Shown here piece after piece: positions 1,679-19,826 of a DNA stretch of 32,000 nucleotides. Each line of letters begins with the position of its first letter. Within the stretch, counting starts at the first letter, position 1. The stretch is from contig NZ_CP054059.1 in assembly GCF_021057185.1 (NCBI RefSeq), positions 90,001 through 122,000 on the forward strand, given 5' to 3'. Made by a program: the position numbers and the translations under genes. This stretch comes from Candidatus Absconditicoccus praedator. GTDB lineage: Bacteria > Patescibacteriota > Gracilibacteria > Absconditabacterales > Absconditicoccaceae. A model generated the notes under the pieces. That model searched no databases. It was not told the origin of the DNA and saw only the letters and a program-made list of their open reading frames with translations.

Positions 1679-2860
1679 ATGGGTAAAATAAAAAATACAT
1701 TTTCAAACCAACAAATATCAAATCCTGCAAACAAATTAAGTAGCTTACAAATACATGAGCTGATAAATATTTTTTTGCAAACAAAAAAGTCTATCAAAAC
1801 TCAAAAATCATATTTTGTAGATTTGAAACAATTTTTTGAAGACTTCCAAATATATGAATGAGCACAACTTATACAAAAACTATCAGACCATTCTATTTCT
1901 GAAGATATTACAAACTTTATCAATTCTCACAAAAAATACGACCCTCAAAATCCCAACAGACTACTAAATCCAAGAACTATAAATAGAAAAGCATATTCTT
2001 TGTCATCTTTTTTTAAATTTTTACAAAAAAGATTTAAAGTAAACTACAATCCGGTGATTTTTGAACCTGCATCTACACCAAAATTTTCTGAAACAAACAG
2101 TTTAAATAAAGAAGAACTTGTATGATTTCTTGAATATCTCAAAGAAAAATACAAAAAAAGTTCAGACAAAAAAATACATATTCATCTTAGAAACTACCTA
2201 ATATTTGGCTTTATGTTTTTTTCTTTGAGAAGAAGTGAAGTATCACAACTTAGACGAGAAGATATAAACTTTGAAGAACAATATATAAAAGTTTTACAAA
2301 AATGATGAACAAACAAATATATACCTCTTCCCGAAGAATTTTTCAATAAGCTTATGCAATTCAAAGATATAAAAGAATCAAAAAAAATTGAAAGTGATTA
2401 TATATTTACACCATTTTACAACAATAAAACTAAAAATTTTGAGAAACCTCTAACTTCCGAGTATATATACAATCTTACTCTGAAACAATGGATAAAATAC
2501 AAAAACAACGAAGAATTATCTCAAATATACAAAGAAAAAGATAAATTAAAAAACAGGAAAAAATACCTCAACAAAAAGCTCAAGCTTTCAAAAGACAAAA
2601 AAATAGAAAATGAAATTAGAATAGTTGAAGAAAAGATTGAACAACTAAATATTAGAAAGAAAAGACTTCTTCAAACAACAAAAAGCATATCATGCCATAG
2701 CTTTAGAAAAAGTTTTGTAGAACAAGCAATTCTTAGATGAGATGATTTTGTTGAGATACAAAATGCCACATGACATTCAGGGCCTGCTATGATATGATAT
2801 TATCAATCTATAAGTAAAACCAAACACAACTCAGCCAATAAAATGAGTGATATATTTTAA
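1679..2860 (+). CDS. Tyrosine recombinase / phage-type integrase (393 aa) with a Lys/Glu-rich coiled-coil-like insertion
   Basis: 394-codon frame with 7 in-frame TGA; it joins track ORFs 1679..1861 and 2354..2740. Motifs: FFSLRRSEVSQLRREDI (Arg box), SCHSFRKSF (HxxR), GHSGPAMIGYY (His/Tyr). A ~65-aa insert KEKDKLKNRKKYLNKKLKLSKDKKIENEIRIVEEKIEQLNIRKKR lies between the boxes. TAA stop at 2858-2860. Confidence 0.8.
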
Positions 2861-7541: not shown

Positions 7542-8429
7542 TGTAAGAAAAGGTAGCGTTGTTAAAAAATTATCAGTAATAGAACTTTTCAATAACTTCA
7601 TAAGGAGTTTTATTATCTAGTCATTTATGTGGCTTTACAGTGTTATATCGATTTACAAATCTTTTTAAAGACATTTTTCTATGTTCTGATGACTTAAAAA
7701 CTTCCTTACTGTGCCACATATCGATTAATGTTCTTATAACCCTCTCTGCTTTTCAATTTGTTCTTGGTGTTCTAACTTTTGTAAATTTTTGCTTTATTCA
7801 GCTTTTTACACACTCTTTAACAAATTCATGTTTATCATTTCATTTGTACTCAACTCAATTATCTGAGTACACACACTCAATAGTGTAAGGACATTCATCT
7901 ATTACCTGTCTAAGAAACATAGACGAAGATACTTGTGTCTTATCTTGCATTATAGCTACATAAAGTTCTCTAGAATAGTCGTCTATTCATACAAATAAGT
8001 ATTCAGACTTTTTGTTTGCTGCTCATCTTATAAGAGGTAGTTTTTTTGTGTCAAAATGCATCATTTCTCAAGGGTAGTTTTTATTGTATCTTCTAGCTTC
8101 TTTGTTTTTCTTTTCTATTATCTTAGATTCTATTTTAGCTAATCTAAGTAATCATCGCCTAATGTTTCTAAATCTATTATTGATAGAATTTCTTGGTAAA
8201 AACTCTTGAGTTCTTGCTCTCTTTATTATCTTGTATATGGTAGGCAATGATACATTGAACTTAATATGTAAATCCTTAGGCTTCATTCATCTTTTATAGT
8301 ATTCCCAGACCTCTTTTCTCTGGAGTGGTGTTAGTCTTGTATTTTTATGTATATTCATTACATAGTTTGTTATCAAATAAATAGTATTTTGTATACACAT
8401 TATTTTTAACAACGCTATATAATCTTACA
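7542..8429 (-). mobile_element. IS481-family insertion sequence (~888 bp)
   Basis: Imperfect terminal inverted repeats: left TGTAAGAaaaggTAGCGTTGTTAAAAAATTA (from 7542), and right, reverse-complemented, TGTAAGAttataTAGCGTTGTTAAAAATAAT (ending 8429). It has TG...CA ends and a single DDE transposase ORF. A possible 4-bp AATA duplication is too low-complexity to trust. Confidence 0.8.
7570..8358 (-). CDS. DDE transposase, IS481 family (262 aa)
   Basis: MNIHKNTRLTPLQRKEVWEYY...LPTIYKIIKRAR (HTH); NYPGEMMHFDTKKL (D); CVYSDNGVEYKG (D); RTPRTNGKAERVIRTL (E). All 11 Gly codons I count are TGA. Ends ...YYG (TGA) TAA. Confidence 0.85.
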
Positions 8430-9320: not shown

Positions 9321-9521
9321 ATATTTGACTTTTTTGCTAAAAGTTAGTTGTAAATTATAAACTTTTTAAAATTTTTTTCAAATTTCTATAATTATTATTT
9401 ATGCTTACTGTTTATAGGTTTCAAATGTGTTTGTAAGAAACCTTAAATACATTTCCTGTATAATTTACTTTCTCTTGAAAAAGACAATTTTGTCATTAAT
9501 AAAAGGATGCAATCCATCAAT

Positions 9522-9684
9522 AGAGGAGGAGCAGAAATGTTCTGGCCGAACAATGATGGTTGAGCTCAGATACATGAGCAGTTAGAGGGAGTTCAATACA
9601 CTCAACAGAGGAGGAGTTGCCGTGTATCCTGATAATAAGGGGTAACACGGTCGCCGGGGTTAGAATCTAGCCCCGGCTTTTTTT
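9522..9684 (+). ncRNA. GC-rich structured transcript with two identical super-SD boxes, two mini-ORFs and a double-hairpin terminator (function unknown)
   Basis: AGAGGAGGAG occurs at 9522-9531 and again at 9607-9616. ATG at 9537 (MFWPNNDG then TGA at 9561) and GTG at 9622 (MYPDNKG then TAA at 9643). Hairpins: GCTCA..TGAGC, CCGTGT(9620)..ACACGG(9650), GCCGGGG(9653)..CCCCGGC(9677), followed by TTTTTTT. GC is far above the flanks. Confidence 0.4.
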
Positions 9685-9871
9685 ATTAAGTATACAATTG
9701 ATATCTTTTCAAAATATCAAAACATAAAACAAATTTTCTCAAAAATAAACTCAAACAAGATTTTTAACAATTTCAACAAAATAGTCAATTTTATAAATTT
9801 AGCTTGAAAAAACTTGTAAACTGTTTATCTTATATTATAATAAGCTAATTTTATACACTTTCACAACAAAG

Positions 9872-12220
9872 ATGCAATTTTCTGAAGCTGATACCAAAGC
9901 CAAATTCATAGACCCAAAACTCAAAGAATCAGCACGAGATGAAGCCAATATCATCAGAGAAGAATATTTTACCACTTGAAGAAAATTTGGAGCCAATACC
10001 AGATGAACTCCTGGATATGTAGACTATCTTCTCAAATACAAAAACAAAAACTTAGCAATAATAGAAGCCAAAAAATCTGAAGAATCTCCCACCAAATGAC
10101 TAGAACAAGCCAAAACCTACTGACAAAAACTTCAAGTAAGATTTGTATATTCTACCAACTGATACGAAATATACGAATTTGACCTAAAACTATGAAAATG
10201 AGATTTTGTAGATAGCTTTCCATCTCCAGAAGAATTATTCCAAAAAATTATTTGAAAAACCAACCATCTCAAAGAAAAGCTGTTAAGTACAGCCTACAGT
10301 ATAGAATGAAATGTCAAACCAAGATACTACCAAGAAAATGCTATCAACAAAGTACTTGAATCCATAGCAGACGGCAACCAAAGAATTCTTCTAACTCTTG
10401 CCACAGGTACCTGAAAAACATTTATAGCTTTTCAGATAGTTTGGAAACTGTTTCAAGCCAGATGGAACAACAAATCCAATTCACAAAGACCCAAAATCTT
10501 GTTTCTTGCAGACAGAAATATTTTGGTAGATCAAGCAATGAACACTTTCAATCCATTGGAAAAAGATATGATCAAGATTGACTGAAGCGAAATCAAAAGA
10601 AGATGATGAAAAGTACCTACCAATGCCAATATATTTTTTGCTATATATCAAGCAATCAGCGACAAAGAAAATATATGATGATACTACAAAGAATATCCTT
10701 CGGATTTTTTTGATTTGGTGATAATAGATGAATGTCATAGGTGATGAGCCAACGAAGAATGAACTTGGCATGAGATACTTCAGCATTTTTCTCCTGCTGT
10801 ACACCTGGGACTTACTGCCACTCCCAAAAGGCAGGACAATATAGATACTTATAATTATTTTGGTGAGCCTGTATATGAATACTCACTCAAAGAAGGGATC
10901 AACGATGGTTTCCTAACTCCCTACAAAGTCAAAAGAATCCAGACCAATCTAGATGAGTTTGTGCTAAATTCTGGAGACAAAATTTTGAAATGAGAATCTA
11001 CAAAATCTGTTTATGATATACAAGACCACGAAAGAAATATAATAATCCACGAAAGAACAGATCTAATAGCTCAAGCAATACTACAAAATATAAATCCTTA
11101 TGAAAAAACTATTGTTTTTTGTGTAGACCAAGATCATGCTCTAAGGCTCAGGGATGCTATCAACAAATACAAATCCAACAATGAAAAAGATTACTGTGTC
11201 AGAGTCACTTCTGATGAATGAGTAGAATGAAAACAATACTTAGAAAGATTCCAAGACAACGACAAAACTTTGCCTGTGATTTTGACTACTTCTCAGATGT
11301 TAACTACTGGAGTAGATGCCAAAAATGTCAGAAATATAGTTTTGCTGAAGCAAATAGGTTCTATGGTAGAATTCAAGCAGATAATATGAAGGTGAACCAG
11401 GCTTTTTGAGTGAAAAGATTATTTCAATATTATAGATTTTGTAGGAGCTACCAACAATTTTTATGATGAAGCCTGGGATGGTGAACCAGCTGCACCTGTC
11501 AAAAAATCCAAACTACAGCTTGGAGAAGATGAAGAGCAGTTAGAAGAAGTCTTGGAAGATTATCAAGAATCAGCAGAAAATCAAAATGAAAGTAATGATT
11601 ATGAGTTTTCTTCTCAGGATCAAGACCTGCCCAAAGAGAAGTTGGAAGTAGAGCTTGGAGACGACAGGACTGTCAAAATCATAAACATAGAAGAAAGATT
11701 TATTGATGAGAATTGAAAGCCACTAAGTGCAGAAGATTTTTTGCAAAAGATAGTGGGAAATATACCTCATCTATATCAAGATATAGATCAACTAAGGCAG
11801 GCTTGGGCTGATCCAGAAAGTAGAGAAGCTTTGTTACAAAAGCTTTATGATATGTGAATAGACAGAGAACAACTCCAAAATCTAAGGAAAATGTTTGAAG
11901 CTGATGGAGTGGATGTTTTTGATATATTGGCTTATATATCTTTCAATGTGGATATGAAAAAGAGGAAGGAAAGGGCTGATTATGTCAGGGAAAATACTGG
12001 TATATTGGAAAAGTATGAAAGTTCTAAGGCTAAGGAGTTTTTGGAATTTTTGTTAGAACAGTATGAAGCCAATGGTATTTTTGAGTTCAAAAGTCATAAT
12101 CTAAAAGCTATGATAGATTTGTATCATTCTACTCCTACGGAGTTGTCCAAGGCTTTTGGTGGGGCTGATAGGTTGAGAGAGGCTTATTTTGAGTTGCAGA
12201 AGGATATTTATGAATTGTAG
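9872..12220 (+). CDS. hsdR: Type I restriction enzyme R subunit (782 aa)
   Basis: MQFSEADTKAKFIDPKL (HsdR N-terminal nuclease region), LLTLATGTGKTFIAFQ (Walker A, with G encoded by TGA), DLVIIDECHRG (DEAH), HLGLTATP, TSQMLTTGVDAKNV, QIIGRGTR. The C-terminal EcoEI-R-like tail is track ORF 11891..12220. Confidence 0.92.
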
Positions 12221-12371
12221 AAAATTATTACTTTTTTAATAAGGTTGAACTCTATAAAATTAGGGATTTATTCTAGGAATTTAGTTTTGAGTGATTTTTA
12301 ATACAGTGAATTATTGACAGGAATTGAATGTTGATTACATATAGTATAATTTATTTTTTAAAATTAACAAT

Positions 12372-12878
12372 ATGTGAAATTATGCCTTTATAGACTGACA
12401 AAATCTATACTTATGAACAAGTAGTGAATGATGGAATTTTGATTTAGAAAAGCTTAGAACATATCTTAAGGATAAATACAAAGTTACCAAGGCTTATTAT
12501 TTTTTGTGATATGTACAGGATGAAAATAATTCACTTTATACTAAATTGCAAGAGTCGGGTTTTATAGTGGTATTTAAAAAACAGATGGTAAATATGACTA
12601 CTGCCAAAAAGTGAAATATAGATAGTGATATGATATTTTGGGTGATGCAAAAACTAATAGAAGAACCAGAAAAATTTGAGCAAATAGTAATAGTATCAGG
12701 AGATTGAGATTTCAAGATATTAGTTGATTACTTGATAAGAAAATGAAGGCTCAAAAAAATATTATTCCCAAATAAAAAATATGCTTCTTCTTTGTATAAT
12801 GATCTTTTGAATGAATATTTTGCTTATATGAAGGATATTAGACCCAAAATTGAGTATAAAAAAAGAGAAGGTACCTAA
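12372..12878 (+). CDS. NYN-domain (LabA/DUF88-like) putative ribonuclease (168 aa)
   Basis: MGNYAFIDGQNLYLG...KAYYFLGYV...GFIVVFK...KGNIDSDMIFWVM...IVIVSGDGDFKILVDYLIRKGRLKKILFP follows the NYN/LabA pattern (IDGxN...D...SGDGDF). 7 in-frame TGA. TAA at 12876-12878. Confidence 0.8.
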
Positions 12879-13008
12879 AGCACCAACACTTTTCGGATCC
12901 CTTCTCGTCTTGATACATTTATATTATAATCAGTTTTTTCAAAAATTCAAGTTTTTGATAAAAAAATTATTTACTTTGTTTCTGTGGTATGTTTGGATTA
13001 AGAAAAAA

Positions 13009-13035
13009 AGGTTTGAAATTTGCTTCAAACCTTTT
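13009..13035 (+). terminator. Intrinsic terminator-like hairpin downstream of the NYN gene
   Basis: AGGTTTGAA-atttgc-TTCAAACCT followed by TTT. A second GC-rich hairpin, CTCCATCGC-ttttg-GCGATGGGAG (13057-13080), follows. Confidence 0.55.
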
Positions 13036-13206
13036 ATATTATAGTTATTAATTTATCTCCATCGCTTTTGGCGATGGGAGGATCCCGGAGGACATTATGA
13101 ATATATGTTAATTAAAATTTTTTAGAATTCAAATAAATCTATGAAAAATAACATAATTAGATTCTAATATAGAAAGAGGTAATTTATTCTTATTATATTT
13201 TAAATA

Positions 13207-15177
13207 ATGCAATATAACTCTTTTAGGAAAATACTTAAATTAATTTTTTTACATCTTTTACCGTCAATTATATTTTATTATATTTGGAAAATTTTTGATT
13301 TTCTTAAAATTAAATTTAAACCTTATAAGGCAATTTTAAATAAATTATCTCTTTTTTTATTGTATGTTTTATTTACAACATTTTTAGCTTTATTGTCTAT
13401 TCTAATTTACAATAACTATATACTTTCAAATGAATTAGATATTATTAATTATCATGATTTATTGATACTACTATTTTTTTTTCTTTTATTCTTATTTTTA
13501 AGAAATGCTGAAACTATATTAGATTATACTCATAGTAAAATTAAAATAATTTCTTCTTTAATTTTATTTCTATTTTTATTTTTTAATATAGAGGAAATAT
13601 ATGCGATATGATTAGGTCAGTTTTTAACTGCAATTTTTTTTTACTGACTATTCTTTATTATAGTTTTTAATGTTTCTTGAGTAAAATCATATAATAATTG
13701 ATTATTAGTAAAATCATATAAGATAGAAAATAGAAGTTTTGATCAATTCTTTGATACATATTTAAATTTATTAAACGAAAAATGAAATTTTATAAATCCA
13801 ATTTTTGATGAACCAATATCAATTGATAATGATGATATATTTTGAATTAATGATATCGTCCAAAATTTATACAATATAATTTTGTGAATAGACTTCAACA
13901 ATCAAAAAGGTTCATATAGTATATGAATAGTAGGTGAATGGTGAAGCTGAAAAAGTAGTATTATAAATTATCTAAAAGATAAATATTTATTTTGATCACC
14001 AACAATTAAAACACTAGAATTTAATCCTTGGAATTATGAAAAGGATGACTTAATAAATAAGTTTTTCACTGAATTGTCTATTGTGCTTTGAAAATCAACC
14101 AATTTGAATAGTAGTATAAAAAAGTATTTAAAGGCATTGTGAGAATTACATAGTTCATTTAATGCTATTAATAGCTTGATTTCAAGCAAGTCTATTAATG
14201 AGATAAAAAAAGATTTGAATAATGAATTAAATAACTCATGAAAGAAAATTATTGTGATAATTGATGACTTAGATAGATGTGATCCATATGAAATTCTATT
14301 AATGCTAAATTTAATAAAAAACTTATGAGATCTGAAAAATATAATATATTTAGTTTCTTACGATAAAGGGAATATAACTAAAGTTCTTGATGATAAGGGG
14401 TTTGATTGAAATTATATAGAAAAGATTATAAATATAGAAAGGTTTGTTCCTGTTTTCACACAAGAACAAAAAAAGAAATATTTTAAAAATGAACTTAAAA
14501 ATATTCTTTGAAAATTATTTTTTAATAAAATTATTTTACCATTAAATTTTGATAAATGGTTTGAAAGTCTATATGTTCAAGATGTGTATATTTCTAAAAA
14601 GGCAAATGCTGAAATTAGAGAAAAATGGCAATTAGCTAAAAGAGAACCTTATTATTTTTTTAAGTATTTAGATGAATTTAATTCTATAGTTAATATTAAT
14701 TTACCTAAAACACTTTTAAACTATAAAAAATTATATTTAAATAAGCCTGAAAAAATAGTCAATACACTATTAAATGAGTTTGATAAAATGCTTGAAGTAG
14801 AAAATCTTAGATTTATAAAAAAATTATTAAATCAATTAAATATTGTTTTGCAGTTAAATTTGAGTAATAATACTAATATGATTCTTGATTTTCATGATGA
14901 AGATTATAAAAAAATTATTGCTATAAATTATTTTAAATTAAAAAATTATTCAAAATTTAACTATGTGATAGATAAATTTATACTAAAAGAAGTTTGAAAA
15001 TTAGTTGATGATAAAAAAATAAAAAGAATTAAAGATGATGATTTTCTTATCAATAAAGATATATATAATGAATATTTTTTAAACAATATATTAAATATTA
15101 GCAAAATGGATCAGTCTAATTTAAGATATACAACTATAAGTGATAAAGATTTTAAAATTATAAAAGAGTTTTCATAA
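13207..15177 (+). CDS. KAP-family P-loop NTPase with an N-terminal multi-TM domain (656 aa); Tmn-like
   Basis: About 5 hydrophobic helices in the first ~160 aa. Then IGIVGEWGSGKSSIINYL (Walker A, both invariant Gly encoded by TGA), LEFNPWNY and KKIIVIIDDLDRCDPYEILLMLNLIK (KAP Walker B). Joins track ORFs 13207..13611 and 14584..14997. Extremely AT-rich. TAA TAA stop. Confidence 0.85.
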
Positions 15178-15223
15178 TAATAAAAAGTAATTATACATTT
15201 ACTATAAATAACCTACAAACCCA

Positions 15224-16390
15224 ATGCAAAACCTACCTGAATGATGGGAAATAAAAAAACTTTGAGATATAGCAACTTTTACAAATTGATTTGCATTTAA
15301 AAGTAGCTTATTTAAGGATGAATGAAAACCAATTTTAAGAATAGCTAATATAAAAGAGAACTGAATTTCTTTTAAAAATCTTGTATATTTTAATGATGAA
15401 GATTATTCACAAGATTTGTCGAATTATAAAGTTTTTCCTTGAGATTTAGTAATAGCAATGTCTTGAGCTACTACTGGGAAACTTACTATAAACAACACAG
15501 ATAAAACCTTTTATTTAAATCAAAGAGTTTGAAAAATTTGATTTGATAATGAAATTACTAAACAATACATTTATTCTTTTTTAAAAACTAAAATAGAATA
15601 CAATCTTAATCGTTCATCTTGATCAGCCATACCCAATTTAAGTACACAACAAATAAAAAATACTGAAATCCCACTCCCACCTCTCGAAACTCAAAAGCAA
15701 ATAGCAGCCAAACTTGATGAAGTGCTGGGAGATATTGACCAGTCTATCCAACTAATCCAACAAAACATAGCCCACATAGATGAAATGAGCAAATCTGTCT
15801 TGAATCAAGTTTTTGAAGAAAAATGGGAAATAAAAAAACTTTGAGATATAGTAAATTTTTCTCAATGACTTCAAGTTCCTATAAAAGAACAAAAATATGA
15901 TTGAAATTATAGATTTTTAAGAATAATTGATTTTACACAATGAAATCAGGAACCTAGGTTTATAGAGAAATATGATGAGAGAGCTTTTGTAAAAGAAACA
16001 GATATTTCTATGGTTAGATATTGAGCATCTACTTGATTTATATGTACTTGAAAAAAATGAATTATAGCAAATAATTTATTTAAGATTACTGCAACTATAG
16101 ATAGTCTTAATAAAAAATATTTGTATTTTTATTTTTTATCAGATTTTTTTAAAAATTACCTTTTTCTAAATGTATATTGAGCAGCAATGCCAGCTATTAA
16201 ATTTTCAACTATTAGCGAATTAGATATCCCACTTCCACCTCTATCCAAACAACAAGAAATAGTTGATTATCTAGACAATATTTTCCAAACCAACGAACAA
16301 CTCAAAAATCAATACCAACAAAAACTTGCCAATCTACAAGAACTCAAAAAATCTGTCCTAAACTCTGCTTTTGAAGGGAAACTGGTTTAA
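15224..16390 (+). CDS. hsdS: Type I R-M specificity subunit with two target-recognition domains (388 aa)
   Basis: LPEGWEIKKLGDIATFTNGFAFKS (TRD1 start) and EEKWEIKKLGDIVNFSQG (TRD2 start). Conserved helices IPLPPLETQKQIAAKLDEVL and IPLPPLSKQQEIVDYLDNIF. C-terminus SVLNSAFEGKLV. Confidence 0.9.
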
Positions 16391-16412
16391 TTATAAGTTT
16401 GATGAAAATTCA

Positions 16413-16985
16413 ATGAGCAAATCTATCAAAAAAGCTGTTTATCTAATATTCTTGGCTATATTTATACTTCTTTTATATTTGGTATACACAATCTGACCTG
16501 CTCAAATTGTTGATTTTATCTGACTAGAAAATACATACCTTGTAATTTTCTTTTTTGCTTTTGTATGATGAGTATTTTTCCTAACTGCAGCTACATTTTA
16601 TACAACATTAGCAACTTTTGTTGTATGATGAGCAGATTTGCTTACTTTGTCGCTAATATCAGCAATATGACTAACAATTGGTGATTTCTTCTTTTATTTT
16701 TTGGGGAGGAAAGCAAAATTATTTATAAATGATAGCAAATACAAATCAAAAGTTGAAAAATTTTCCAACTGGATAAGAGCCAAATCTGATAAAACAATTT
16801 TTTGGTTTTTGCTGCTTTATTGGAGTTTTGCCCCATTGCCAAATGATATACCATCATCATGATTATGAATTGCTTGATACAACTGGAAAAAAATGATACT
16901 TCCAATTTTTGTGTGAAATATTAATTATAATTTGCTGATATGAAGCCTGGCAATGTTTGGATACAGTATATATTGAGTACTCTAA
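16413..16985 (+). CDS. DedA/SNARE-associated (VTT-domain) family membrane protein (190 aa)
   Basis: Polytopic hydrophobic protein with the diagnostic LTIGDFFFYFLGRK motif and ...FAPLPNDIPSSGLGIAGY. 14 or more in-frame TGA. Confidence 0.7.
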
Positions 16986-17016
16986 AAGGTCTTTACAGGT
17001 AATTTAATGGGGTGTC

Positions 17017-17200
17017 CCCCTTCAAACATCCAACGAATGTTTAAGGGGATCCCTTCAAATCCCTAAGTTACCGCGCGGAGTTGAAGGTATGGACCACCCC
17101 TAAATTATCGCGCGGAGTTGAGGGTGTGCGGCATCCCTAAGTTATCGCGCGAAGTTTGAGGTATGCTGCATCCTTCAAATATTCAATGAACATTTGAGGG
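17017..17200. repeat. GC-rich repeat element: three tandem 37-bp units flanked by two homologous hairpins
   Basis: Units are 17061-17097, 17098-17134 and 17135-17171 (CCCTAAGTTACCGCGCGGAGTTGAAGGTATGGACCAC and variants). The left hairpin is CCTTCAAACAT..ATGTTTAAGG (17017-17048). The right hairpin is CCTTCAAAT..ATTTGAGGG (17172-17200). A truncated unit (CCTAAATTA) follows. Confidence 0.8.
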
Positions 17201-17234
17201 AGCTACCTAAATTAATAAAAACATAATCATAAAG

Positions 17235-17302
17235 ATTTCCAACCCACATATTAATATTGAAAAAAATATCCAAAGATATATTATATCAAATAAGTTTAGC
17301 TT
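17235..17302 (+). repeat. Copy 1 of a duplicated ~68-bp promoter-like segment (upstream of the 17317 gene)
   Basis: ATTTCCAACCCACATATTAATATTGAAAAAAATATCCAAAGATATATTATATCAAATAAGTTTAGCTT is near-identical to 18222-18290 and contains TTGAAA-N17-TATATT. Confidence 0.75.
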
Positions 17303-17316
17303 GTCATAACAAAGAA

Positions 17317-17886
17317 ATGACAAAAAAAGATAAATTGGCTATATATCAAAATGATAATTGAGAAATAAAAGTTAATTTTGATGAAAATCAAGAAACTTTT
17401 TTATGACTTGATAGTACTTGATGGACATCCCTGAGTGCCATAGCTATATTTTTATCTGTATTAGCATCTTTATTTATTTCTATTTGTTTAGAACCACTAA
17501 AAAATAGTTTTAAGAAAAAAAGGATTTTAAAAGTCTTAGAAAGTAACTTAGACAAAAATATTGAAATTTTGAAAAAAATAAAAGAATTTGATTTGTATGA
17601 AATTACTAGAAATCAAAAAGAAGAAGAACAAGAAAAATTAAAGAAATTTGTTTATAGTATAAACTTTGAATCTTGGGAATTAAATAAAAGTTTTTTATCT
17701 ATAACAAGCCCACAGGAATTTGATAAATATAATAATATACATATTAAATTAAGTAATATAAAAAATGAATTTTGTGAACTAGAAAACATCAATAGATATT
17801 GGTATACTAAAAATGTTGAAAAGATAATAAGTAAGTTTAATTATACTAAAAATAATATAAAAAAGTTCTTAGAGGAATACGAATAA
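17317..17886 (+). CDS. Hypothetical membrane-anchored coiled-coil protein (189 aa)
   Basis: MTKKDKLAIYQNDNGEIKVNFDENQETFLGLD..., one TM segment (LSAIAIFLSVLASLFISICL), then a Lys/Glu-rich helical region. Extends track ORF 17569..17886 upstream through 3 TGA codons. Confidence 0.55.
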
Positions 17887-18221
17887 ATACAATGCTATAC
17901 TATATTTATTTAAAAAATTTGAATAGGTATATTTCTAACTTTTAAATCATTATTAATATCTTCTAATTCAATTAGTTCCAAAATGACACTAGTTTAAAAA
18001 AAGCAATGTGCAAAAAATGCACATACCACTAAATTGAGCCTGGTTAATAAAATCAGCAAAACTATTTCCAAACAAACTCAAACTTAGAAACAGTTTGTAA
18101 TAGTAAGTAGATTTCAAAATCTTTAAACTTGTCACGATTTACAAAACAACATTGTCCGTGACAAAAGCTAATATAAGTTTTGAATTGATTTTTCTAAAAA
18201 ATATCAAATTGGACCGTGACA

Positions 18222-18290
18222 ATTTCCAAACCCCAATATTAATATTGAAAAAAAAATCCAAAGATATATTATATCAAATAAGTTTAGTTT
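18222..18290 (+). repeat. Copy 2 of the duplicated promoter-like segment (upstream of hsdM)
   Basis: ATTTCCAAACCCCAATATTAATATTGAAAAAAAAATCCAAAGATATATTATATCAAATAAGTTTAGTTT. See 17235-17302. Confidence 0.75.
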
Positions 18291-18380
18291 ATAAAAAATC
18301 ACTTATTTCATATTTTGCAACAACTGTCATTTGTACTATAAATCATTATGTTAAACCAATTTACCAAATAATCATACCCA

Positions 18381-19826
18381 ATGCAACAACAAATAAACAG
18401 AATTACAGATATTCTCCGTAGAGACGACTGAATCTCTTGAGCTATGCACTATACAGAACAAATATCCTGGATTCTTTTTCTGAAATTTATAGATGATTAT
18501 GAAAAAGAAAATTATGAATGAGCCTTGCTTGATGGCAAAGATTATGAATTTATACTAGACCCAAAGTTTAGACGAGATAATCGAGCCTGTCCCAAGACCA
18601 AAGACCACAAACTTGATGTGAACAATGCTCTTACCTGAGATGATCTCAAAGATTTCGTAAACAATGAGCTTTTCCCTTATCTTCAATCTTTCAAAGATAC
18701 CAGTAAAGATTACAATACTATGAAATACAAAATAGGTGAAATCTACTATTTCATAGACAACAGGATAGAAAGCTGACACACTATCAGAGAGATTTTGGAT
18801 ATAGTAGACTGACTCAGTTTTCAAAGCGAAAAAGATCTTTTTGAGCTTAGTAAAATATATGAAGACTTGCTTCAGTGAATGGGTAGCGATGGTTGAAATT
18901 CAGGTGAGTTTTATACTCCAAGACCTGTAATAAAAGCTATGACAGATACTATCAACCCCAAGATTGGGCAAACTATTTATGATGGAGCCAGTGGTAGTTG
19001 TTGATTTTTGATAGAAGCTTTTGAAAACCTAAAAAAACAAGAAAAAACAACTGATGACTACTATTTCCTAAGGAATAAAACCTTTTATGGAAACGAAAAG
19101 ACACCAATAGCTTATATTATGGGTATGATGAATATGATACTTCATTGAATTTCCAACCCAAACCTAAGCAAGCAAAACAGCCTCACCCAAGATGTAAGAT
19201 CTATTGAAGAAAAAGACAGATACGATATTATCCTTGCCAATCCACCTTTTGGATGAAAAGAAAAGGAACAAATTCAAGCTAATTTCCCTATCAAAACCAA
19301 CTCTACTGAAATGCTATTTCTCCAACATTTTATGAAAAAACTCAAAACTTGATGAAAAGCTGCTATAATTGTCCCAGAATGAGTTTTGTTTAATACCTCA
19401 CAACCTTTCCAAAAAATTAAACAAGAACTTATAGAAAATTATAATCTACATACTATTTGTAGTTTGCCTGCAGGAGTGTTTTTGCCTTATTCTGGAGTAA
19501 AAACAAATATTATATATTTTGACAAACAGTGAACTACCAAGGATATACGATATTATGAAATAAATCCTTGAAGAAATCTTACCAAGAATTCCCCTTTGAA
19601 ATACGAAGAAATCCAAGAATTTATAGATCTTTTTGATAGCAGGAAAGAAACAGAAAATTCATGGATAGCTCCAGTAGAAGATATCAAAGACTATGATATA
19701 TCAGCCAAAAATCCTCACAAAAATAAACCAGAAGAATACAGAACTCCTCAAGAAATACTAGAAAATATTGAAAATAATGACCAAAAAATCAATGAATTAA
19801 CCAATAGACTAAAAGAAGCTATCTAA
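18381..19826 (+). CDS. hsdM: Type I R-M DNA methyltransferase subunit (N6-adenine), 481 aa
   Basis: ITDILRRDDGISGAMHYTEQISWILFLKF (HsdM N-terminus), GEFYTPRPV, IYDGASGSCGFL (AdoMet motif I), ILANPPFGGKE (motif IV), STEMLFLQHFM, AAIIVPEGVLF. Confidence 0.92.

What the first reader, a model, noticed from the sequence alone, without database searches (positions are those of the whole stretch)
9872..19826. Type I R-M system dispersed over 10 kb, with four unrelated genes and a repeat element interleaved between hsdR, hsdS and hsdM
The order is hsdR - NYN - KAP NTPase - hsdS - DedA - [37-bp repeat element] - coiled-coil membrane protein - hsdM, all on the same strand. Type I loci are known to harbour embedded defence genes, for example the PrrC anticodon nuclease inside EcoprrI. 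Here, though, every junction of the system is occupied, including R|S and S|M. This suggests a composite defence island in which the inserted genes may be licensed or guarded by the R-M complex. An intrinsic terminator and new promoter-like sequences between the modules argue against a single operon.
Basis: partly seen in the sequence, partly recalled or inferred. Interest (0 to 1): 0.7.

Follow-up and report, generated by a model that had tools for sequence, protein, structure and literature searches.

The report
Type I restriction locus carrying cargo genes
This is an intact EcoAI-type (type IB) restriction-modification system in a code-25 candidate-phylum bacterium, with unrelated genes between its three subunit genes; that layout is the norm for this enzyme family and is already described, so the finding is real but largely ordinary.

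Summary
Read with genetic code 25 (TGA=Gly; the organism is Ca. Absconditicoccus praedator), the + strand encodes hsdR, NYN, TM-KAP NTPase, hsdS, a DedA-like protein, a 3x37-bp repeat, a TM/helical ORFan and hsdM at exactly 9872-19826. All three hsd genes are full-length with intact motifs.

The claim that full junction occupancy is unusual is not supported. Of 61 complete loci of this HsdR family, 22 have cargo at both junctions, 32 at one and 7 at none. Among code-25 relatives with the same R-S-M order, 7 of 8 have both filled, with AbiEii, Fic, Schlafen, SMODS, DUF3800, AAA_13 or another KAP. Campylobacter rlo/mlo genes, PrrC and Vibrio TgvAB are published precedents.

The cargo is modular. 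KAP relatives mostly lie outside hsd loci. A close relative (hsdM and DedA regions 94-95% identical in DNA) has deleted hsdR-NYN-KAP-hsdS in one event and lacks the ORFan cassette, but keeps DedA and hsdM.

The one new lead is the small NYN RNase. It has a conserved 3' hairpin and sits directly after an hsd gene in 3 of 8 independent genomes, across three different hsd families. Guarding by the R-M complex remains untested.

Verdict: new member of a known kind, moderate-low interest.

The parts
9872..12220 (+). hsdR, 782 aa, EcoAI/FtnUII-family (type IB) restriction subunit
   Evidence: NCBIfam NF046051 equivalog, 882 bits against a cutoff of 550. Pfam ResIII, Helicase_C and EcoEI_R_C; PADLOC REase_I 8.7e-167. 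The nuclease D51/E65/K67 and the helicase motifs GTGKT, DECH, TATP and QxxGRGxR are invariant in alignment A1.
12372..12878 (+). Small LabA-type NYN (PIN-like) predicted RNase, 168 aa
   Evidence: PF01936, 7e-17. More than 1650 homologs at 55-82% identity. The acidic residues D8, D84, D86, D111 and D113 are invariant in A9. It follows an hsd gene in the window, L170 and L171.
12866..12905 (+). Conserved hairpin at or after the NYN stop codon
   Evidence: The motif CCTAAAGCACNNNCACTTTTCGG occurs once in every NYN locus that holds an exact copy; L002 carries a diverged copy seen in the alignment. 12 pairs, 96.9% of cells paired, 3 pairs with compensatory changes, 3 of 500 shuffles as good. No Rfam match.
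13006..13035 (.). Palindromic terminator-like hairpin between NYN and KAP
   Evidence: 13-pair stem, reported on the - strand by the scan. The sequence is palindromic and has T-rich flanks on both sides.
13207..15177 (+). KAP-family P-loop NTPase with an N-terminal multi-TM region, 656 aa
   Evidence: PF07693, 1.5e-32. PADLOC PifA 1.7e-35 (partial coverage) and a weak QatA hit. Walker A GEWGSGKSS and Walker B IIDDLDRC are visible in the translation. About 5 hydrophobic segments in residues 8-161. A 100% identical NCBI protein from Ca. Absconditicoccus praedator exists.
15224..16390 (+). hsdS, 388 aa, two target-recognition domains
   Evidence: PF01420 in 2 stretches, 5.6e-49; PADLOC Specificity_I 3e-68. 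An internal 54-nt repeat marks the two halves.
16413..16985 (+). DedA/VTT-like multi-pass membrane protein, 190 aa
   Evidence: PF09335, 31.3 bits (below the gathering score of 33.9). Multiple TM segments. No PADLOC hit. A 98% identical copy is retained in relative L005, which lacks hsdR and hsdS.
17005..17215 (.). Hairpin-rich element containing the 3 x 37-bp tandem repeat (17059-17182)
   Evidence: RNA folding z-score -4.8 (+ strand) and -5.4 (- strand). Conserved with 3 copies in L005. Found nowhere else in the window or in the 180 loci.
17236..17309 (+). 74-nt direct repeat, copy 1 (promoter-like TTGAAA-16-TATTAT), upstream of the ORFan
   Evidence: 88% identical to copy 2. The 43-nt core is identical but for one degenerate position.
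17317..17886 (+). ORFan membrane-anchored helical protein, 189 aa
   Evidence: No Pfam or NCBIfam hit. Among 1.84 billion representative proteins the search finds only itself and two marginal hits. One of these, P0324, is a real distant homolog (31% over 134 aa). One TM segment at residues 34-62. All-helical AF2 model; only generic four-helix-bundle matches.
18129..18222 (.). Three CGTGACAA motifs (one inverted) in the 3' part of the ORFan cassette
   Evidence: These are all three copies in the window, clustered within 94 nt. Absent from L005.
18224..18297 (+). 74-nt direct repeat, copy 2, upstream of hsdM
   Evidence: L005 has a single hybrid copy.
18381..19826 (+). hsdM, 481 aa, N6-adenine methyltransferase subunit
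   Evidence: HsdM_N + N6_Mtase, 1.2e-60; PADLOC MTase_I 4.7e-158, full length. The NPPF motif is present. 60-69% identical to homologs across phyla.

Best explanation
The region is one intact EcoAI-family (type IB) restriction-modification system. Its three genes lie in the order R-S-M that is typical of its closest code-25 (Gracilibacteria/Absconditabacteria/Peribacteria) relatives. In this enzyme family the two junctions between subunit genes act as cargo bays, repeatedly filled with different accessory genes by horizontal exchange and recombination. Here the R|S bay holds a small NYN RNase with its own conserved 3' hairpin, plus a membrane-anchored KAP NTPase whose NTPase core resembles PifA. 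The S|M bay holds a DedA-like membrane protein, a hairpin repeat, and a 988-bp cassette with an ORFan membrane protein, bracketed by a duplicated 74-nt promoter-like block. Inferred working: HsdM2S methylates a bipartite target, and R2M2S restricts unmodified DNA. The cargo genes act as independent modules (KAP probably as an abortive-infection NTPase; DedA probably not in defence at all) that simply share a mobile, fast-changing locus. Predicted transcription units are hsdR (possibly with NYN), KAP-hsdS-DedA, the ORFan, and hsdM. Shown: gene identities, intact motifs, family-wide architecture, modularity, and indels in a close relative. Inferred: enzymatic activity, transcription units and cargo functions.
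For: Identities and intact motifs. Family survey: 80 HsdR-anchored loci. Of 61 complete loci, 22 are occupied at both junctions, 32 at one and 7 at none; all 8 R-S-M loci use code 25, and 7 of them are occupied at both. Cargo in relatives: AbiEii, Fic, Schlafen-AlbA_2/HATPase_c_4, SMODS, DUF3800, AAA_13, Bro-N, KAP, Zeta toxin, RhuM and AAA_21/15; the 88 cargo proteins of the non-code-25 loci fall into 65 clusters. Modularity: KAP relatives lie outside hsd loci in L001 and L003/L004, and 80 further KAP loci show no hsd or NYN gene. NYN is 86% identical in L170 next to an HsdR only 32% identical. Turnover: in L005, hsdR codon ~20 is fused in frame to the hsdS 3' end at the microhomology ACTCAAAnAATC; L005 also has a single 74-nt repeat and no ORFan cassette, while DedA (98%) and hsdM (95%) are kept. 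Short gaps KAP-46-hsdS-22-DedA. Strong terminators bracket the locus. Published precedents: PMC5183652, PMC11411939, PMC2610378, PMC12707154.
Against: No expression or methylation data are available, so activity is inferred from sequence only. NYN lies next to hsd genes more often (3 of 8 contexts) than simple independence predicts. In this AT-rich DNA, promoter-like hits are no more frequent than in shuffled sequence, so the transcription units are guesses. The gene calling in the survey was my own simple ORF caller, and hsdS fragments may have misassigned a few junctions.
Confidence: 0.72

Rival explanations
1. Guarded-effector model. The NYN RNase is held inactive by the type I complex, like the PrrC anticodon nuclease in EcoprrI. 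It is released when a phage anti-restriction protein blocks the enzyme, and then cleaves RNA to abort infection. KAP may act with it.
For: NYN has a PIN-like RNase fold with all acidic residues conserved. It sits immediately downstream of an hsd gene on the same strand in 3 of 8 independent genomic contexts: 151 nt after hsdR in the window, 28 nt after hsdR in L170, and 15 nt after hsdM in L171. The hsd systems belong to three different families: L170 HsdR is 32% identical to the window's, and L171 HsdR is of the HSDR_N/T1R_D3 type. A NYN-KAP neighbourhood recurs once more, in L002. PrrC and PARIS are precedents for R-M guardians (PMC12707154).
Against: Five of 8 NYN contexts have no hsd genes: Sod/MoxR, SufBD/ABC, UPF0102/YmdB, PDDEXK_3 plus a tandem NYN, and KAP/DnaK. 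NYN homologs also occur on four viral contigs without hsd. NYN has no ATPase or sensor domain of the PrrC/RloC kind. NYN is far more conserved than the adjoining HsdR, so the two do not co-evolve. In L002 the NYN and KAP genes converge and so are not an operon. The embedded TgvAB system of V. cholerae works independently of HsdR (PMC11411939).
Confidence: 0.15
2. Decay model. The dispersal reflects an R-M system being broken up by insertions and on its way to loss, so the locus is no longer a working restriction system.
For: A close relative (hsdM and DedA regions 94-95% identical in DNA) has already deleted hsdR through hsdS and keeps only hsdM. An rve-family transposase and a tyrosine recombinase lie just upstream, and a foreign high-GC gene lies downstream.
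Against: All three hsd genes are full-length with every catalytic motif, and score as full-length equivalogs. The same interleaved R-S-M layout occurs in 7 other code-25 genomes with intact genes, so interleaving does not mean decay.
Confidence: 0.08
3. Housekeeping-neighbour model. NYN and DedA are ordinary conserved cellular genes, and the hsd genes merely recombined into position around them, so the locus is not a composite defence island at all.
For: NYN is conserved at 55-82% identity in over 1650 proteins of many CPR lineages, often in housekeeping surroundings. DedA has no defence hit and survives the R-M deletion in L005 at 98% identity.
Against: KAP (PifA-like core) and the ORFan cassette are not housekeeping genes. 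A single system's R and S genes flanking NYN in two genomes with different hsdR alleles is hard to obtain by separate hsd insertions. The NYN family is also carried by phages. Relatives fill the same slots with classic defence and toxin genes.
Confidence: 0.05

Closest known systems
EcoAI / type IB restriction-modification systems
   Same: HsdR is an equivalog-level match to the EcoAI/FtnUII family, with the EcoEI_R_C domain. HsdM and HsdS are full-length, and HsdS has two TRDs.
   Different: The gene order is R-S-M rather than the R-M-S seen in the Gammaproteobacteria and Bacteroidota members of my survey. The host reads TGA as Gly. Four extra genes are interleaved.
Campylobacter jejuni hsd loci with rlo and mlo genes (Miller et al. 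2005, as cited in PMC5183652 and PMC2610378)
   Same: Unrelated ORFs lie both between hsdR and hsdS and between hsdS and hsdM, and they vary between strains. Some are defence genes (RloC, RloF).
   Different: Different phylum and different cargo: NYN, KAP, DedA-like and an ORFan instead of the rlo/mlo families. I did not compare the direction of transcription relative to gene order.
EcoprrI-PrrC (and RloC)
   Same: A predicted RNase gene is embedded inside a type I R-M locus.
   Different: PrrC and RloC are ABC-ATPase-linked anticodon nucleases with demonstrated silencing by the R-M enzyme. NYN is a small single-domain PIN-like protein, is not obligately linked to hsd, and nothing is known of its regulation.
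Vibrio cholerae VPI-2 type I R-M with embedded TgvAB (PMC11411939)
   Same: A two-gene insert sits inside a type I R-M operon that remains active, and the insert works on its own.
   Different: TgvAB is a GmrSD-like type IV restriction system. Here the R|S insert is NYN plus a KAP NTPase, with no evidence that the two act together.
PifA of the F plasmid (KAP-family abortive-infection NTPase)
   Same: The KAP P-loop core gives the best PADLOC match (1.7e-35). The protein is predicted to be membrane-associated.
   Different: Only part of the profile is matched. The N-terminal multi-TM region is not conserved even among close relatives. No phage-exclusion phenotype is known.

Membership tests
Type I R-M system, EcoAI (IB) family | HsdR with a PD-(D/E)xK nuclease, SF2 helicase motifs and the EcoEI_R_C domain | tested here: met
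   NF046051, 882 bits against a cutoff of 550. Pfam domains. Invariant D51/E65/K67, GTGKT, DECH, TATP and GRGTR.
Type I R-M system, EcoAI (IB) family | HsdM N6-adenine methyltransferase with HsdM_N and the NPPF catalytic motif | tested here: met
   PF12161 + PF02384, 1.2e-60; PADLOC MTase_I 4.7e-158, full length. ANPPFG is present in the translation.
Type I R-M system, EcoAI (IB) family | HsdS with two target-recognition domains and conserved spacer regions | tested here: met
   Two PF01420 stretches. Internal repeat at 15239/15818.
Type I R-M system, EcoAI (IB) family | Sequence-specific bipartite m6A methylation and ATP-dependent restriction | not testable with these tools
   Needs methylome data or biochemistry.
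hsd locus with intervening ORFs (rlo/mlo-type architecture) | One or more unrelated ORFs between hsdR and hsdS and between hsdS and hsdM, variable among relatives | tested here: met
   gaps of 3003 and 1990 bp. Relatives carry different cargo.
PrrC/RloC-type R-M-guarded anticodon nuclease | ABC-type ATPase domain fused to a C-terminal nuclease domain with the Arg-Glu-His triad | tested here: not met
   NYN is a 168-aa single PF01936 domain. No AAA_13 or ABC hit in any window cargo protein.
PrrC/RloC-type R-M-guarded anticodon nuclease | Consistent genetic linkage of the nuclease to a type I locus | tested here: inconclusive
   NYN lies next to hsd genes in 3 of 8 independent contexts. RloC itself is only rarely linked (PMC2610378).
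PrrC/RloC-type R-M-guarded anticodon nuclease | Silencing by the R-M complex and activation by an anti-restriction factor | not testable with these tools
   Needs an experiment.
KAP family P-loop NTPase | KAP P-loop domain with Walker A and B motifs and associated transmembrane helices | tested here: met
   PF07693, 113.5 bits against a cutoff of 20. GEWGSGKSS and IIDDLDRC. Hydrophobic segments in residues 8-161.
PifA abortive-infection protein | Full-length similarity to PifA and a phage-exclusion function | tested here: inconclusive
   PADLOC PifA 1.7e-35, but the best stretch covers profile positions 147-275 of 720. The function could not be tested.
DedA/VTT membrane protein family | VTT domain above the Pfam gathering score | tested here: inconclusive
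   31.3 bits against a gathering score of 33.9, E 3.1e-7. Multi-TM. No NCBIfam hit.
NYN (LabA-like) nuclease | PF01936 domain with conserved acidic active-site residues | tested here: met
   62.7 bits against a cutoff of 24.2. D8, D84, D86, D111 and D113 are invariant in 17 homologs.

The most novel reading that the evidence does not exclude
The small LabA-type NYN RNase, together with its conserved 3' hairpin, is a previously unrecognised accessory module of type I R-M systems in code-25 Patescibacteria. It would be inserted directly behind hsdR or hsdM in at least three different hsd families, and would work as an R-M-linked RNA-cleaving back-up (analogous to PrrC but unrelated in fold), possibly with the hairpin as its own regulatory target.
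Probability: 0.17. Interest if true: 0.6.

Novelty: new member of a known kind. Interest (0 to 1): 0.33.

Why it matters
The result shows that the hsd junctions of EcoAI-type systems are general landing sites for accessory genes, and that this holds in recoded, ultra-small episymbiotic or predatory bacteria, where defence systems are little studied. These junctions are therefore a useful place to look for new defence genes in candidate phyla. Several cargo proteins in the relatives (645-830 aa) have no known domain. The NYN RNase is a concrete, testable candidate for a new R-M-associated effector. The locus itself needs no new biology to explain it.

Tried and rejected
1. Code 4 (Mollicutes-like, TGA=Trp) was rejected: TGA aligns with Gly, never Trp.

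2. A first genetic-code heuristic for the survey loci misclassified high-GC genomes and was replaced.

3. A metagenome scan with a KAP alignment gave 80 loci, but only 2 were close relatives. None had NYN or hsd genes, so it added little.

4. A tblastn of NYN against plasmids gave only ~29-30% identical rhizobial hits and was not followed up.

Its TGA-free part (residues 36-189) was accepted.

6. The structure and fold search for the ORFan gave only generic four-helix bundles, and four of the five AF2 models were poor, so no function was inferred. The afdb50 library was unavailable.

7. Rfam, both at gathering thresholds and at E<=1, found nothing for the 37-bp array, the NYN hairpin or the RNA-like region upstream of hsdR.

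8. The single phage-contig match to the NYN hairpin motif covers only the inner stem and is near chance expectation, so I did not build an att-site hypothesis on it.

9. CRISPR was considered for the 37-bp repeat and rejected, because the copies are head-to-tail with no spacers.

10. The ORFan shows no similarity to the small TM/helical cargo protein of L006.

Full report
**Observation**

With the bacterial code the region has no long ORFs. Reading TGA as a sense codon gives seven consecutive + strand genes. TGA stands for glycine. It falls on the invariant glycines of the Walker A and helicase motifs. At the 16 in-frame TGA codons of hsdM, seven standard-code homologs have Gly in 88 of 112 aligned cells and Trp in none. 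A 100% identical KAP protein in the public database is from Candidatus Absconditicoccus praedator, a member of a lineage that uses code 25.

Translated with table 25, the genes are:
- hsdR, 9872-12220
- NYN, 12372-12878
- a KAP NTPase with a multi-TM N-terminus, 13207-15177
- hsdS, 15224-16390
- a DedA/VTT-like membrane protein, 16413-16985 (just under Pfam's threshold)
- a 189-aa membrane-anchored helical protein, 17317-17886
- hsdM, 18381-19826

The 37-bp element is a three-copy tandem repeat at 17059-17182 inside a hairpin-rich 210-nt stretch.

**Integrity of the R-M system**

HsdR is an equivalog-level match to the EcoAI/FtnUII (type IB) family, at 882 bits against a cutoff of 550. It keeps the nuclease D-ExK residues and all helicase motifs. 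HsdM matches a type I methyltransferase profile end to end and has NPPF. HsdS has two recognition domains. Nothing suggests a pseudogene. Activity itself cannot be tested here.

**Is the interleaving unusual?**

I fetched 80 loci anchored on relatives of this HsdR (44-59% identity) from one genome per species. For each I chose the genetic code, called genes and located R, S and M. Of 61 complete collinear loci, counting the window and two more from metagenomes:
- 22 have more than 300 bp of inserted sequence at both junctions
- 32 have it at one junction
- 7 have it at none

Three layouts exist:
- **R-S-M** occurs only in code-25 genomes (8 loci, 7 with both junctions filled).
- **R-X-M-S** occurs in Gammaproteobacteria and Bacteroidota (17 of 18 with an insert).
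- **M-(X)-S-(Y)-R** occurs in more distant members.

The cargo in the code-25 loci comprises AbiEi/AbiEii pairs, Fic, Schlafen-AlbA_2/HATPase_c_4, a SMODS nucleotidyltransferase, DUF3800, Bro-N, an AAA_13 ATPase of the PrrC/RloC kind, a second, distant KAP NTPase, and several large proteins with no known domain. In the other loci, 88 cargo proteins fall into 65 clusters. The recurrent ones are AAA_21/AAA_15 ATPases, Fic, Bro-N, Zeta toxin, RhuM and Schlafen-like proteins.

The literature already describes ORFs between hsdR and hsdS (rlo) and between hsdS and hsdM (mlo) as a hallmark of Campylobacter jejuni hsd loci (PMC5183652; PMC2610378). It also describes the embedded TgvAB system of Vibrio cholerae (PMC11411939) and PrrC as an R-M guardian (PMC12707154). 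Occupancy of every junction is therefore the family norm, not an exception.

**Are the inserts tied to the R-M system?**

- **KAP:** its closest relatives lie beside a Vsr-like gene (L001), in a recombinase and type III R-M island (L003), or next to NYN without any hsd gene (L002). Eighty more distant KAP loci show neither hsd nor NYN.
- **DedA:** it has no defence-profile hit. It is retained at 98% identity in the close relative L005.
- **Deletion in L005:** hsdR codon ~20 is fused in frame to the last ~13 codons of hsdS across the microhomology ACTCAAAnAATC. This single deletion removed hsdR, NYN, KAP and hsdS.
- **The ORFan cassette:** L005 has one hybrid copy of the 74-nt block that is duplicated in the window, and it lacks the 988-bp ORFan cassette between the copies. 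The cassette was therefore gained or lost by recombination at that repeat.
- **The ORFan protein:** a search of 1.84 billion representative proteins finds only itself and two marginal hits. One of these is a real distant homolog, at 31% over 134 aa. Its predicted fold is a generic helical bundle.

These data show a modular, fast-changing locus rather than a co-adapted unit.

**The exception worth noting: NYN**

It belongs to a very conserved family (over 1650 homologs at 55-82% identity, mostly from candidate phyla) with all active-site aspartates intact.

Three of eight independent genomic contexts place it directly behind an hsd gene on the same strand:
- the window: hsdR-151 nt-NYN
- L170: hsdR-28 nt-NYN-96 aa-reverse transcriptase-hsdS, with NYN 86% identical but HsdR only 32% identical
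- L171, an Altimarinota genome: hsdM-15 nt-NYN-248 aa-hsdS-...-hsdR, with an HsdR of a different family

The other five contexts have no hsd genes. Related NYN genes also occur on four standard-code viral contigs.

Each NYN locus carries one copy of a ~40-nt hairpin, 0 to about 850 nt after the stop codon. An exact motif copy is found in ten loci and the window, and a diverged copy in L002. Across 8 loci, 96.9% of cells are paired, three pairs show compensatory changes, and there is no Rfam match. The association with type I loci is more frequent than I would expect by chance, but it is not obligate. Eight contexts are too few for a firm claim.

**Transcription**

Promoter-like hexamers are no more frequent than in shuffled sequence. 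The best evidence for separate units is therefore indirect:
- the gaps of 328, 331 and 494 nt
- the palindromic hairpin between NYN and KAP
- the duplicated, conserved 74-nt promoter-like block in front of the ORFan and of hsdM

By contrast, KAP, hsdS and DedA are separated by only 46 and 22 nt and are probably co-transcribed. Expression of the specificity subunit would then be tied to a cargo gene. Strong + strand terminators bracket the whole locus.

**Verdict**

The interpretation as a special, fully interleaved composite system whose inserts are licensed by the R-M complex is only partly supported. The locus is a new member of a known and common kind: a type I R-M locus with embedded accessory genes. 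The NYN-type I link, the NYN hairpin, and the pool of unannotated cargo proteins in code-25 relatives are the parts that merit follow-up.

Noticed in passing
window 1-32000: The whole window uses genetic code 25 (TGA=Gly). Tools that translate with table 11 fragment every gene. The organism is Ca. Absconditicoccus praedator, by a 100% protein match.
   Followed up: yes
window 9470-9690 (+): A GC-richer, strongly structured RNA-like element (folding z-score -5.8) with repeated GAGGAGGAG motifs. It ends in a perfect intrinsic terminator (9653-9677 plus a T7 run) in the divergent region upstream of hsdR. There is no Rfam match even at E<=1, so it may be an undescribed small RNA.
   Followed up: partly
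window 21000-22600; gene 21625-22467 (-): A block of ~47-57% GC in a ~27% GC genome encodes an intact DapD-like tetrahydrodipicolinate N-succinyltransferase (THDPS_N_2 + hexapeptide repeats) with no TGA codons. It looks like a recent foreign acquisition (perhaps from a high-GC host or prey) or an assembly chimera.
   Followed up: partly
window 12866-12905, and one copy in each of L170-L180 (a diverged copy in L002): A conserved ~40-nt hairpin accompanies the NYN gene in every NYN locus examined, 0 to about 850 nt after the stop codon. It has compensatory base changes and belongs to no known RNA family.
   Followed up: partly
window 17236-17309 and 18224-18297: A 74-nt direct repeat (88% identical) carrying a promoter-like TTGAAA-16-TATTAT brackets a 988-bp cassette with the ORFan gene. 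The close relative L005 has one hybrid copy and no cassette.
   Followed up: yes
window 18129-18222: All three copies of CGTGACAA in the window (one inverted) cluster within 94 nt just upstream of the hsdM promoter-like block. This may be an operator for an unknown regulator.
   Followed up: no
window 1679-2860 (+) and 7570-8400 (-): A tyrosine recombinase (Phage_integrase) and an rve-family transposase lie upstream of the hsd locus, which fits a mobile or rearranging region.
   Followed up: no
L005 8849-11446: A close relative (hsdM and DedA regions 94-95% identical in DNA) carries an hsdR'-'hsdS fusion remnant of about 31 codons, followed by DedA and an intact orphan hsdM. Its genomic flanks differ from the window's (ClpB upstream).
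   Followed up: yes
L170 10612-13038; L023 8101-10377: Other code-25 type I loci carry a 698-aa reverse transcriptase (RVT_1), or a SMODS nucleotidyltransferase with two small partner genes, in the R|S junction. Several 645-830-aa cargo proteins (L006, L007, L029, L036) have no Pfam domain at all.
   Followed up: no
L182-L185 (IMG/VR contigs): NYN-family homologs (43-50% identical) are encoded on four standard-code viral contigs, one of them inside what looks like a phage structural gene block.
   Followed up: no
L175-L178 7294-8495: Some genomes carry two tandem NYN paralogs (52% and 70% identical to the window's) preceded by a PDDEXK_3 nuclease gene.
   Followed up: no
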